This document shows positions 51,701 to 54,700 of a stretch of DNA of 64,000 nucleotides, piece after piece (the stretch's first letter is position 1; the number at the start of each line of letters is the position of its first letter). Source of the DNA: Saccostrea cucullata (Eukaryota); assembly GCF_032062105.1 (NCBI RefSeq), contig NW_026938891.1, forward strand, positions 186,001 to 250,000, in the 5' to 3' direction. A program made the position numbers.

Positions 51701-54700
51701 AGCATATATTTTTTGTGTATGTTTACAATGTCATGTGTTCTTCCATGTAAAAAAATTCACACCCAAACATGTAAAATGTTTTGCAGTTGTAGAATACAAC
51801 TTTTGAATGGGGATCTTACAATCAGACACTTAAAACTCAATAACTTGAGAAGCTTTCACACAAAATTTTTATTCCTTTAGTTGGATTTTCTTTCAAAATA
51901 AAAGCAGGTCTCTAGCATATCTTTGTTCACATACTTGTTGATAGAACAAGATATAAAATTTTCTATCCATTTTACCTCCCAAAAGATAATTCTTTTTGCA
52001 GAAAATGTTGCTGGAAAAATAAGCTTCTGTTGTTTTTCATCATTTACCTTGCATTATGGTTCATTTGTCATTTTCCAGAAAATTGTAAAGGTTTCTTCAC
52101 CTCTTCTTGTATACCTTGTGATAAAAATGATTAGAAATTACTTGTATCATTGTAAGGAAGATGACCTTTAACATTGGAAATGTTGGAGAGTTTTTAGAAA
52201 GTGTAAAGTTGGTGTTTCAATGTAAGGGTCATTGAATGCCTGGCAGTGGTTACTGCCAGTGAAATAGGAAGGATGTTCTAGATGCTATCTTGGCAAACTC
52301 AGAAACTGCCAGTGATTTAGCATGCTAACAGTGAGAAAGGTAATAGAAAGTCTGTCTCTCTATTTAGTGATTGATTCTGAGTGGAAATTTATATGTTCTT
52401 TACTGTCAAATTAAGCATTAAATTAGCTGTGAAAAGGCATTCTTTTATGCTCACATGCTGTTTGTTTGTATTTTGAATTTCTGACCCTCTTTCATTTTTT
52501 GGAATTTTGTAGGTTGTTCACGCCAGGGGTTTATATGACTTTGCTGGTGATGTTGATAATGGTGAGCTGACATTCGCAGCTGGGGAAACCCTCACAATCG
52601 TAGCACAGGTAAGATTTACTGGGGAAACCCTCACAATCATAGCACAGGGAAAAACCCTCACAATCATAGCACAGGTAAGATTTACAGGGAAAACCCTCAC
52701 AATCATAGCACAGGTAATATTTAGAGCAGGAGAAAACCTTTACAATTATAGCACAGGTAAGATTTCCTGGGGAAATCCTCACAATCATAGCACAGGTAAG
52801 ATTTCCTGGGGAAACCCTCACAATCATAGCACAGGTAAGATTTCCTGGGGATACCCTCACAATCATAGCACAGGTAAGATTTCCTTGGGAAAACCCTCAC
52901 AATCAAAGCACAGGTAAAATTTAAGTGGGGAAAACCCTCTGGTAAAATAAAAAAGCACAGGTAAGATTTTCAAAGTGTGTCTGTCAAAAATTGCCTCACA
53001 ATCATACACAGGTAAGACTCTCCTCATAAACCCTTGGCCTACGGTGTTCATAAAAATCGGGATTTTTCCCAAAAATTAGTACACAATGTAAAATTGTAAA
53101 TGACGCTAAGCTATTATATCTGGAAATGAAAAAAAAGTAATGATAACATGCAATTCTATGAATCCTAACCATAGCAAATATGTGATGGAACTATATTGAA
53201 ATTTGTACTATAAGTAATAAATAAACATTACAATTATTGCTTCTAAATAAGAAAAAACTTTAATTTAATTTTTTTTAAACATGTGTCTTTATTTTTGTCG
53301 ATGACCTCTGACTGGTAAAATTTAAAAACTAGAACATTTTGGAAGATTTTCACGAAGTGTGTCTGTCAAATTGGATTTATTGCTGGTGTCTTGGTAGCTC
53401 AGTTGGTTGAGCATTTGACAAGAGATTCAGGGGGCCTGGGTTCAAATCCTGGCCTGGTCTGTTGCATTCTCCTCTCCCTTTATATTACTGTAGGTGCTCT
53501 GCCCTGGAAGTGACAGGGGAAAGACCCATACATATGTCTTATACCTGTACATGTAGAGGAATCATCTTGTTAGTCTGTCTGTTAGTGCATCGTTTTTCAC
53601 CATTACTTGAATTATTTGGAATTTATGCTTTATACAAAATTGCTTATGACCTGAGTTAGGTTACTGGCAGAAAAAAATTGTGTCTGGTCTATTACTTTAT
53701 ATCTAGAAGCCCTGAATCCTCATGGAGGAATATTGGATGCACCAATTTCAAAATGGCAATGGGAAGTATAATTTACAGGGTTTGCCCATGGTACCTATAA
53801 GGTTTTGAATGAAACTTATTTTATATGTGCCAAATTAATATTTGCCCAATTAAGTGTAACTAATTACTTGAACTTTCATCTTATTGTGTTTGAAGTTCAT
53901 GTTTCAGTATGTACAAATAGATAATTATAGAAAACATTTCCTTCTTGCAAATATTCACTGATATCAAGTATTGAACCTTATTTATCAGTATCAACACAAT
54001 AACTTTGTAGCACTGTTGTCCTATTGTAAATGTGTATACACAGCAAATTGTTAATACATATATATATTATTAGATATTAGATATTAAGGAAGATATTTTA
54101 TTAAAACTACTTACAAATGATGACTTACCTAGAACAATATCATTGCTTGTTGAATAAGGATCAAGGCCCTTAACGATTTTAGAGGAAACTGACAATATTC
54201 ATTAAAACAAGATTTTAATTACATCTAAATTCAATTTCATTTATTGAATCAATTTGATTAACATGATTAACATTGATCACTGGTGTTTCCATGGTATTTA
54301 ATTTCTAGTAAGTTTTTATAATTCAGAAATAAAATATCATTGGGTAACTATAGACATATATAATCAATGTGTTTCAATGAGGTTCTCAAAATGACTCAAA
54401 CAAGACAAACTTGTGCAGTATGATATAGCTCACAATTAACACAGCTTAATGATTAATGACATATTATCAATCTAATTAATTTACAGGTGTAACATTTCAG
54501 GTGAACAGTGCATTTGTTACTCAGAGTTAAGAAATGTGGCATTTTGAAAAAAAAAATATGGAAAGTTAACGTAAATACAGTAAAAACTTTATGGTACAAA
54601 CACTACTGTTTATAGCAATTATTATAATTTATTTCAATTCATTAGAAAACTTCAAAAATTTATTCAATACATTCCTGGAAATACATAGTTACTCTTGAAG

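What the first reader, a model, noticed from the sequence alone, without database searches (positions are those of the whole stretch)
52582..53016. SNX SH3 exon donor echo with a 39-nt (13-codon) period
The unit is 27 exonic plus 12 intronic nt, and most copies keep CAG|GTAAGA. Echo donors at 52674 (+66) and 52713 (+105) are in frame and stop-free and would insert repeats of the SH3 strand (VRFTGETLTIIAQ..). A 43-nt unit then breaks frame. Copies decay towards the distal end, consistent with seeding at the exon.
Basis: partly seen in the sequence, partly recalled or inferred. Interest (0 to 1): 0.68.

Follow-up and report, generated by a model that had tools for sequence, protein, structure and literature searches.

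The report
Splice-donor echo repeat in oyster gene
A 39-base piece straddling the end of one exon of an oyster sorting-nexin gene has been copied about ten times head-to-tail into the intron, a known kind of repeat ("mirage" minisatellite) that leaves a row of spare splice sites which are probably unused.

Summary
Tandem Repeats Finder reports an array at 52580-52939 (period 39, 9.4 copies, score 440). Two further degenerate units reach 53023. The first unit is the last 27-29 nt of an exon plus the first 10-12 nt of its intron.

The exon (52513-52608) is exon 2 of a sorting nexin-33-like gene (SH3-PX-BAR). Its exons are identical to a Saccostrea cucullata protein.

The coding part of the unit (GETLTIVAQ) is conserved in five named oyster orthologues, so the exon seeded the array. 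All six aligned orthologues join this exon to the next with no insert. No database protein carries the repeat peptide.

The kind is known: human F7, IFI6, CBS, LMNB2 and PDGF, and the amphioxus "mirages" (PMC1557585, PMC3087553). I file it as a new member of that kind.

Use of the echo donors could not be tested. +66 and +105 stay in frame; the next five hit early stops in exon 3.

Unexpectedly, three more boundary-spanning arrays lie in a neighbouring TRPM-like gene. One has about 111 copies and fills most of a 3.7-kb intron. That makes 4 of the window's 11 arrays (random placement expects 0.98, P = 0.010).

The parts
48349..48360 (+). Exon 1 coding part (MADM) of the sorting nexin-33-like gene, followed by GTAAGT
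   Evidence: Single match of a degenerate pattern, context read. It matches the N-terminus of P0002.
52513..52608 (+). Exon 2, 96 nt, phase 0 at both ends. It encodes VVHARGLYDFAGDVDNGELTFAAGETLTIVAQ, the first half of the SH3 domain. The authentic donor is CAG|GTAAGA at 52608/52609.
   Evidence: tblastn to P0002 residues 5-36 is 100% identical. Pfam SH3_1 positions 3-26 of 48, E 0.0026, below the cut-off on its own.
52580..53023 (+). Boundary-spanning minisatellite: about 10 units of 39 nt, with variants of 27, 40, 43, 47 and 51 nt. The first unit is the exon end plus the intron start.
   Evidence: TRF 52580-52939, score 440. Hand layout and MAFFT of the units reach 53023.
52621..52647 (+). 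Unit U2a, 27 nt. It is an echo that lacks the 12 intronic nt and therefore has no donor at +39. An ACAGG microhomology flanks the missing piece.
   Evidence: TRF sub-period 27.
52648..52725 (+). Units U2b and U3, with echo donors at 52674 (+66) and 52713 (+105, GTAATA). Both are in frame and would add 22 or 35 residues.
52726..52768 (+). Unit U4, 43 nt. It shifts the frame for every donor from 52756 onward.
52769..52885 (+). Units U5-U7, a homogenised central block. They match each other at 38-39 of 39 and share the intronic tail TTTCCT. Donors are 52795, 52834 and 52873, all in frame +1.
52886..53023 (+). Units U8-U10, the degenerate distal edge (33/40, 30/47 and 26/52 identical to the exon copy). 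Donors are 52913, 52960 and 53011.
59621..59695 (+). Exon 3, 75 nt. It encodes DIGEGWWEAKNETGEQGLIPEAYVQ, the second half of the SH3 domain, and holds the acceptor that all the donors would share.
   Evidence: Pfam SH3_1 positions 29-47, 23.7 bits against a cut-off of 22.9. tblastn.
60475..60780 (+). Exon 4, the low-complexity linker with W/D-rich motifs. It is identical to P0002 and is what points to S. cucullata rather than S. echinata.

Best explanation
This is a boundary-spanning minisatellite of the kind called a 'mirage' in amphioxus and described at human F7 IVS7.

Origin. A 39-bp segment was duplicated in tandem. It held the last 27-29 nt of exon 2 of an oyster sorting nexin-33-like gene and the first 10-12 nt of intron 2. 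Replication slippage or unequal exchange then amplified it to about ten copies, all on the intron side. Ordinary tandem-repeat turnover followed. The central block is homogenised, the distal edge is decayed, and there are indel variants of 27 and 43 nt.

Consequence. The exon copy stays under protein-coding constraint and remains the working donor. The nine echoes are pseudo-donors at +66 to +403. Seven carry the same 9-mer as the authentic donor and two differ at one base.

Most likely behaviour (inferred). The most upstream donor is chosen and the echoes are silent or minor. If the echoes were used:
- +66 and +105 would put 22 or 35 residues between the two halves of the SH3 domain.
- +148 to +305 would meet a stop early in exon 3 and probably be degraded.
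- +352 and +403 lie beyond an in-frame stop (TAA at 52915-52917), so their extension is itself terminated.

What is shown and what is inferred. Shown: the anatomy, the gene identity, the direction of seeding, and the donor used in annotated models. Inferred: the duplication mechanism and the silence of the echoes.
For: - Array and coordinates.
- Gene: the window's exons are identical to P0002, sorting nexin-33-like of Saccostrea cucullata. P0002 matches the SNX33 PX-BAR structure 4akv at E 7.6e-113 and the SNX9 SH3 structure 2enm at 2.2e-13.
- Direction of seeding: GETLTIV(A/T)Q is kept in 5 of 5 named oyster orthologues, and DIGEGWW follows directly in 6 of 6 aligned proteins. All 8 echoes that can be read at that codon have ATA where the exon has the conserved GTA.
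- Local origin: 8 of 8 unit matches in the 64-kb window lie in the array.
- Turnover pattern: U5-U7 agree at 38-39 of 39 and U8-U10 decay. The amphioxus globin paper describes the same pattern (PMC3087553, section 16).
- First donor used in models. No protein of 73-235 aa or 236-2000 aa holds the read-through peptide.
- Precedent for upstream-donor choice among identical donors: F7 IVS7 (PMC1557585; abstract, Introduction and Discussion read).
- Frames.
Against: - No transcript evidence of any kind was available, so silence of the echo donors rests on gene models and on mammalian and amphioxus precedent.
- The same review of precedents lists IFI6 and CBS, where the two nearest pseudo-sites are used.
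- Seven echo donors have the same 9-mer as the authentic donor, and predicted accessibility is similar (0.36-0.62 against 0.49). Nothing in the sequence itself marks the first donor.
- In the neighbouring TRPM-like gene, one NCBI model (P0158) does read through echo units of a similar array.
- Whether related species lack the array, and whether it varies in length, could not be checked.
Confidence: 0.75

Rival explanations
1. Isoform generator. The in-frame echo donors at 52674 and 52713 are used at a meaningful level. They would give SNX33-like proteins with 22 or 35 extra residues in the SH3 loop that precedes the WW motif, changing ligand binding.
For: - Both donors are in frame and stop-free.
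- 52674 has the same 9-mer as the authentic donor.
- In IFI6 and CBS the two nearest pseudo-sites are used (PMC1557585 Introduction).
- The junction falls between Pfam SH3_1 positions 26 and 29. By recall this is the n-Src loop.
- Src microexons insert residues into the SH3 domain and change its ligand specificity (PMC5577857 and PMC4509517, abstracts only). That they sit in the n-Src loop is recalled.
Against: - 6 of 6 aligned orthologue models have no insert.
- The clusters of P0001 and P0002 have one member each.
- No protein carries the peptide.
- The insert would repeat a hydrophobic beta-strand sequence rather than a loop-like one.
- A period divisible by three is a 1-in-3 event, and the frame is lost after three units.
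- F7, LMNB2, PDGF and the amphioxus mirages use only the authentic site.
Confidence: 0.12
2. Splicing or transcription helper. The row of strong U1-type sites just inside a 7-kb intron acts as an intronic enhancer of exon 2 definition, or protects the long intron from premature cleavage. The sites themselves are not spliced.
For: - Nine further donor-like sites lie within about 400 nt of the 96-nt exon, seven of them with the authentic 9-mer.
- The intron is 7012 nt long (52609-59620).
- Each donor of the 39-nt units is followed by a G-run. That G-runs favour the upstream donor is recalled from vertebrate work and was not tested here.
Against: - There is no sign of selection on the echoes. The distal units decay and indels are tolerated.
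- The nearest echo has lost its donor.
- Conservation in other species could not be tested.
- Ordinary repeat turnover explains the pattern without any function.
Confidence: 0.07
3. Dispersed repeat or transposon-borne satellite that landed beside the exon and supplied its 3' end, or an assembly artefact that inflated a single copy.
For: - The window is rich in tandem arrays, 11 distinct ones at TRF score 80 or more.
- A tRNA-like element lies about 370 nt beyond the array.
Against: - The exonic part of the unit encodes an SH3 strand conserved across four oyster genera, so the exon came first.
- The unit is absent from the rest of the window.
- The units differ by substitutions and indels in a structured way, unlike a simple assembly stutter.
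Confidence: 0.04

Closest known systems
Human F7 intron 7 VNTR (37-bp minisatellite whose first unit spans the exon 7/intron 7 boundary; Borensztajn et al. 2006, PMC1557585)
   Same: The unit size is nearly the same (37 against 39 bp). The first unit straddles the donor. Five to nine identical donors follow one another. Only the most upstream is used in the normal gene, which matches the oyster gene models.
   Different: In F7 only 4 exonic nt are in the unit, against 27-29 here, so the oyster echoes also repeat coding sequence. F7 splicing was tested in 50 constructs and nothing has been tested here. The oyster array has lost its first echo donor. Its donors (CAG|GTAAGA) are much closer to the consensus than the F7 donor given in the paper (UGG/gugggu).
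Amphioxus 'mirages' (Adh3, globins BflGb6 and BflGb9, troponin C, PGBD5; PMC3087553 section 16, PMC3902484)
   Same: They are minisatellite-like tandem duplications of exon-intron boundaries in an invertebrate. They occur at both donor and acceptor sides and at several places in one gene. Central units are homogenised and edge units excluded. Regular splicing is not disturbed. The window shows all of these features if the three TRPM-like arrays are counted.
   Different: The lineage differs (a mollusc). Length variation and somatic instability, shown for amphioxus, were not testable here. One oyster array (about 111 copies, 3.5 kb) is far longer than the 2-6 units described for the globins.
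Human IFI6 (6-16) and CBS intron 13 minisatellites (cited in PMC1557585 Introduction; primary papers not seen)
   Same: The array starts at a donor and supplies many pseudo-donors. The nearest ones can give in-frame insertions.
   Different: There the two nearest pseudo-sites are shown to be used. Here use is unknown, and only two of nine echoes keep the frame.
Neuronal Src N1/N2 microexons (PMC5577857 and PMC4509517; abstracts only)
   Same: This is what the hypothetical isoform would work like: extra residues spliced into an SH3 domain at an exon junction, changing ligand choice.
   Different: Src uses dedicated cassette microexons of 5-6 or 17 residues (the 17 is recalled) with neuron-specific regulation. 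The oyster insert would be 22-35 residues of repeated strand sequence from an extended exon, and is not known to exist.

Membership tests
Boundary-spanning minisatellite ('mirage' / F7-IVS7 type) | Head-to-tail array of short units (about 10-160 bp), three or more copies | tested here: met
   TRF period 39, 9.4 copies, score 440. 8 matches against 0 expected.
Boundary-spanning minisatellite ('mirage' / F7-IVS7 type) | The first unit contains a real exon-intron junction, so the splice site is repeated in the intron | tested here: met
   The exon ends at 52608 by identity to P0002. The array starts at 52580. Eight of 10 donor 9-mers are identical.
Boundary-spanning minisatellite ('mirage' / F7-IVS7 type) | The exon copy is the original, being coding sequence shared with relatives | tested here: met
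   GETLTIV(A/T)Q in 5 of 5 named oyster orthologues. The echoes share a derived Ile codon.
Boundary-spanning minisatellite ('mirage' / F7-IVS7 type) | The authentic site is used and the echoes are silent or minor in transcripts | not testable with these tools
   Only gene models are available: 6 of 6 lack an insert. There are no RNA data.
Boundary-spanning minisatellite ('mirage' / F7-IVS7 type) | Copy number varies between alleles (VNTR) | not testable with these tools
   No second copy of this locus was available. For the neighbouring array A, P0158 comes from another contig and reads a different repeat peptide, which hints at variation there.
SNX9/18/33 subfamily (SH3-PX-BAR sorting nexins) | N-terminal SH3, low-complexity linker, then PX and BAR domains | tested here: met
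   SH3 halves in exons 2 and 3. P0002, identical to the window's exons, carries PF00018, PF00787 and PF10456. It matches 4akv (SNX33) at E 7.6e-113 and 2enm (SNX9 SH3) at 2.2e-13.
Isoform-generating tandem donor array (IFI6 type) | Two or more of the repeated donors are used in mature mRNA | not testable with these tools
   No transcript data. Protein searches were negative.
Isoform-generating tandem donor array (IFI6 type) | The unit keeps the reading frame | tested here: inconclusive
   39 and 27 nt keep the frame for the first two echo donors. The 43-nt unit breaks it for the remaining seven. Stops follow in exon 3.
Dispersed satellite or transposon-derived repeat | The same unit is found at unlinked sites | tested here: not met
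   Within the window, 8 of 8 matches are in the array. A genome-wide test was not possible because no eukaryotic genome collection was on hand.
Structured RNA gene | Match to an RNA family, or a fold better than shuffles | tested here: not met
   No Rfam hit in the array. Fold z-score is -0.23, and 44 of 100 shuffles fold at least as well.

The most novel reading that the evidence does not exclude
Exon-boundary minisatellites are made systematically in oyster genomes rather than one at a time by chance. In this single 64-kb window, 4 of 11 tandem arrays start at a splice site, in two unrelated genes. Three are at donors and one is at an acceptor. One has grown to about 111 units with 61 CAGGTA sites and makes up about 94% of a 3.7-kb intron.

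That would point to a duplication process tied to splice sites or to transcription. It would also be a route by which introns grow, and by which new alternative donors arise, out of echoes of their own boundary. In amphioxus the mechanism is described as unclear. The SNX33-like array, with two in-frame echo donors in an SH3 loop, would then be one young example caught before decay.
Probability: 0.3. Interest if true: 0.65.

Novelty: new member of a known kind. Interest (0 to 1): 0.4.

Why it matters
Taken alone, this array is a tidy mollusc example of a known oddity. Its practical value is twofold. It warns gene annotators, since one neighbouring NCBI model already reads through such echoes. 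It is also a natural test of how the spliceosome picks one donor among eight sharing the same 9-mer.

The wider value lies in the cluster. There are four boundary-spanning arrays in 64 kb, including an intron built almost wholly of copies of its own donor. If that holds genome-wide, oysters would join amphioxus as lineages where splice-site duplication is common. A large, countable data set would then bear on two open questions: why such arrays form at boundaries, and whether they feed intron growth, intron gain and new alternative splice sites.

Tried and rejected
- **Repeat peptide in protein databases.** The 134-aa read-through ORF was searched against 5.8 billion proteins. At 236-2000 aa there were 5 hits, all covering only the exon part (23-24% of the query). 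At 73-235 aa there were 3080 candidates and none significant.
- **RNA explanation.** There is no Rfam family in the array. The fold is no better than shuffles. Donor accessibility does not single out the authentic site.
- **Dispersed repeat.** There is no other copy in the window.
- **A fifth boundary array.** The 47-nt array at 26259-26399 starts 33 nt inside its intron and does not include the donor, so it was not counted.
- **Structure prediction.** Placing the junction in the n-Src loop therefore rests on Pfam profile positions and recall.
- **Spliced model.** The frame consequences come from arithmetic and from translating exon 3 alone in the other two frames.
- **Unnamed relatives.** P0007-P0155 from the representative search were not fetched, because some may be vertebrate or human. 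Only P0006 (74% identical) was used.
- **Collections.** The genome collection holds only bacteria and archaea and was not scanned. No orthologous intron, second allele or genome-wide count could be obtained.
- **Literature.**
  - A search for such arrays in oysters found 34 papers holding 3 of 4 terms. None of the 10 listed titles concerns them.
  - A search for 'mirages' with minisatellite and intron found 3 papers. Two concern amphioxus and the third a pine genome study; none concerns a mollusc.
  - Supplementary files were not opened.
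Full report
**What is there**

The window has no N and no masking. Tandem Repeats Finder reports an array at 52580-52939 with period 39, 9.4 copies, 82% matches and score 440. It also reports sub-periods of 27 and 66 nt.

Laying the sequence out by its CACAGGTA motifs gives ten donors: 52608, 52674, 52713, 52756, 52795, 52834, 52873, 52913, 52960 and 53011. The only other CACAGGTA on the + strand of the window is at 24674. The units measure 39 (the exon copy), 27, 39, 39, 43, 39, 39, 39, 40, 47 and 51 nt, ending at 53023.

A 29-nt core of the unit matches 8 times at up to 3 mismatches. All 8 matches lie in the array, and none is expected in 100 shuffles. Eight of the ten donor 9-mers read CAG|GTAAGA. 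The one at 52713 has GTAATA and the one at 52913 has GTAAAA.

**The gene**

The open frame that ends at 52608 begins after an acceptor (ttttgtag) at 52513. It encodes VVHARGLYDFAGDVDNGELTFAAGETLTIVAQ. Pfam places this on positions 3-26 of the 48-position SH3_1 profile. The 75-nt exon at 59621-59695 covers positions 29-47.

I searched the contiguous genomic read-through (52513-52917), never a joined model. It returned five proteins, all oyster 'sorting nexin-33-like'. They come from Saccostrea echinata, S. cucullata, Crassostrea virginica, Ostrea edulis and C. gigas.

Mapping the S. cucullata protein P0002 back onto the window by tblastn shows the exons to be identical to it (exon 1):

| Exon | Window coordinates |
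|---|---|
| 1 | 48349-48360 |
| 2 | 52513-52608 |
| 3 | 59621-59695 |
| 4 | 60475-60780 |
| further | near 62743-62865, 63041-63139 and 63614-63742 |

Exon 4 and the PX-domain start agree with P0002 and differ from the S. echinata protein. The window is therefore most likely S. cucullata or something very close.

P0002 matches the solved SNX33 PX-BAR unit (4akv, E 7.6e-113) and the SNX9 SH3 domain (2enm, E 2.2e-13).

That includes the hypothetical extended isoforms.

**Which copy came first**

The 27 exonic nt of the unit encode GETLTIVAQ. That peptide, or GETLTIVTQ in C. gigas, is present in all five named oyster orthologues. DIGEGWW follows it directly in all six aligned proteins. The exon copy is therefore the ancestral one and the intron copies are its echoes.

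Every echo that can be read at that codon (8 of 8) has ATA where the exon has the conserved GTA. So the echoes descend from one early copy or have been homogenised among themselves. They were not re-seeded repeatedly from the exon.

**Shape of the array**

Identity to the exon copy does not fall steadily:

| Unit | Identity to exon copy |
|---|---|
| U2b | 35/39 |
| U3 | 34/39 |
| U4 | 32/43 |
| U5 | 36/39 |
| U6 | 37/39 |
| U7 | 36/39 |
| U8 | 33/40 |
| U9 | 30/47 |
| U10 | 26/52 |

Units U5-U7 agree with each other at 38-39 of 39 and share the intronic tail TTTCCT with U4. This is the usual picture of tandem-repeat turnover, with a recently homogenised centre and a decayed outer edge. The same pattern is described for amphioxus globin repeats (PMC3087553 section 16).

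The first echo (52621-52647) lacks exactly the 12 intronic nt. An ACAGG microhomology flanks the missing piece. As a result there is no donor at +39 and the nearest echo donor is at +66.

**What the echo donors would do**

- Donors +66 and +105 keep the frame. They would add VRFTGETLTIIAQGKTLTIIAQ, and then VRFTGKTLTIIAQ as well.
- After the 43-nt unit, the donors at +148, +187, +226 and +265 are in frame +1. Exon 3 read from its third base meets TGA after ten codons.
- The +305 donor is in frame +2. Exon 3 read from its second base meets TAG at the second codon.
- The last two donors lie beyond an in-frame stop at 52915-52917.

Being stop-free is weak evidence for coding, since several other frames on both strands are also open over much of the array.

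The insertion point lies five residues before the WW pair, between the two halves of the SH3 profile. By recall this is the n-Src loop, where neuronal Src microexons insert residues and change ligand choice (PMC5577857 and PMC4509517, abstracts only).

**Are the echoes used?**

Nothing I could run answers this directly. Against use:
- All six orthologue models lack an insert.
- The two Saccostrea clusters have one member each.
- No protein of 73-2000 aa contains the repeat peptide.

Neither for nor against:
- Predicted RNA structure is no better than shuffles (z = -0.23).
- The authentic donor is no more accessible than the echoes (0.49 against 0.36-0.62).

**Known relatives**

This arrangement is known. 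Borensztajn et al. (PMC1557585; I read the abstract, Introduction and Discussion) studied the human F7 gene. Its 37-bp minisatellite has a first unit that spans the exon 7/intron 7 boundary. Five to nine identical donors follow one another, and only the most upstream is used.

Their Introduction lists other cases:
- IFI6 (6-16) and CBS, where the two nearest pseudo-sites are also used.
- LMNB2 and PDGF, where only the authentic site is used.

I did not see those primary papers.

In amphioxus such repeats are called 'mirages'. They occur at Adh3, globin, troponin C and PGBD5 genes, at both donor and acceptor sides, without disturbing normal splicing (PMC3087553, passages and section 16; PMC3902484, one passage).

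My searches found no report from a mollusc. In one search, none of the 10 listed titles concerns such arrays. One search found three papers: two on amphioxus and one on a pine genome.

**Unexpected context**

A TRPM-like channel gene with a NUDT9-type C-terminus runs on the minus strand from about 36302 to 4217. Three more arrays of the same kind sit in it.

- **Array A (13207-13437, 35 nt x 7).**
  - The exon 13552-13416 ends with CAAAG followed by GTTAGA.
  - That junction recurs five more times, at 13388, 13353, 13318, 13291 and 13256.
  - The next exon starts at 12918.
- **Array B (TRF 4781-8291, 32 nt x 111).**
  - The 120-nt exon 8461-8342 ends ATGATTCAG followed by GTACAA.
  - The unit repeats its last 21 nt plus 11 intronic nt.
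  - The 3717-nt intron holds 61 CAGGTA sites, against 0.28 per kb per strand in most of the rest of the window.
  - The array is about 94% of the intron.
- **Array C (8415-8594, 71 nt x 2.5, 97% matches).**
  - It duplicates the acceptor side of that same exon: 24 intronic plus 47 exonic nt.

The exonic parts are conserved in the S. echinata and S. cucullata relatives, which use the first donor at arrays A and B.

One exception is P0158, a partial S. cucullata model from a 12-kb contig. It reads through echo units of array A before splicing to the same next exon. Its repeat peptide differs from the window's. This hints at allelic variation and shows that such arrays can mislead annotation.

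**How unlikely is the cluster?**

Of 11 distinct arrays with TRF score 80 or more, 4 span an exon boundary. Placing the same arrays at random in the window, with 39 approximate exons, gives 0.98 expected hits and P(4 or more) = 0.010. For the seven arrays with units of 71 nt or less, the expectation is 0.32 and P = 0.00015.

The second figure is a post-hoc split. The exon list is approximate, and this is one window chosen because of one of the arrays. I treat it as a lead, not a result. A fifth candidate (26259-26399) was checked and rejected.

**Verdict**

The feature is a boundary-spanning ('mirage'-type) minisatellite seeded by exon 2 of an oyster SNX33-like gene. It is a new member of a known kind.

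The isoform idea is possible but unsupported. By precedent and by the gene models, the echoes are most likely silent or minor.

The more interesting lead is that such arrays appear to be common around here. That deserves a genome-wide count.

**What stayed unchecked**

- Transcripts.
- Allelic length variation.
- The orthologous intron in other bivalves.
- Genome-wide dispersal of the unit.
- The structural position of the junction.
- Any joined (spliced) model.

Noticed in passing
13207-13437 (array); minus-strand exon 13552-13416; next exon from 12918: A second donor-echo array, in a TRPM-like gene. The 35-nt unit is 22 exonic plus 13 intronic nt. The junction CAAAG/GTTAGA occurs 6 times (exon plus 5 echoes), with short 27-28-nt variants.
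   Followed up: yes
4625-8341 (minus-strand intron); TRF array 4781-8291; exon 8461-8342: A third donor-echo array. A 32-nt unit (21 exonic plus 11 intronic nt) is repeated about 111 times. There are 61 CAGGTA sites in a 3717-nt intron, and the array makes up about 94% of the intron. Relatives' models use the first donor.
   Followed up: yes
8415-8594, minus strand: An acceptor-side echo of the same exon. A 71-nt unit (24 intronic plus 47 exonic nt) is present 2.5 times at 97% matches. It gives two pseudo-acceptors upstream of the true one at 8461.
   Followed up: partly
P0158 against window 13222-13534: An NCBI model from S. cucullata (438 aa, named ADP-ribose pyrophosphatase mitochondrial-like, from a 12-kb contig) is a partial model of this TRPM-like locus. 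Its N-terminus reads through echo units of the 35-nt array. Its repeat peptide differs from the window's, suggesting another allele or assembly copy.
   Followed up: partly
about 40864-46376, + strand: A DIRS-like tyrosine-recombinase retroelement lies upstream of SNX exon 1. Its ORFs carry zf-CCHC, RVT_1 and Phage_integrase domains. Identical short ORF translations at 40864-41004 and 46236-46376 mark flanking repeats.
   Followed up: partly
61242-61289, + strand: A likely 48-nt cassette exon (LIETKPDGPLTMTVEP) has an AG before it and GTAGCT after it. It is homologous to a 16-residue insert present in C. virginica X3, O. edulis X3 and C. gigas X4 but absent from both Saccostrea models.
   Followed up: partly
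53388-53460, + strand: A tRNA-like sequence (Rfam tRNA, 32.8 bits) that ARAGORN does not call. It is probably a tRNA-derived SINE, about 370 nt beyond the array.
   Followed up: no
1022-1558, 16199-17151, 20154-21554, 55270-56177: Four long-unit satellite arrays (146-168 nt). None is at an exon boundary. The first two look like one family from their TRF consensus, but they were not aligned.
   Followed up: no
15561-15623 and 14704-14760, minus strand: Two stretches both align to the same 19-21 residues of the TRPM relatives, at 71% and 47% identity. This may be a duplicated or mutually exclusive exon, or a decayed copy.
   Followed up: no
P0001 and P0156: The S. echinata SNX33-like and TRPM1-like proteins are both listed with a longest contig of 8,180,103 bases. 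The two genes are probably neighbours there too.
   Followed up: no
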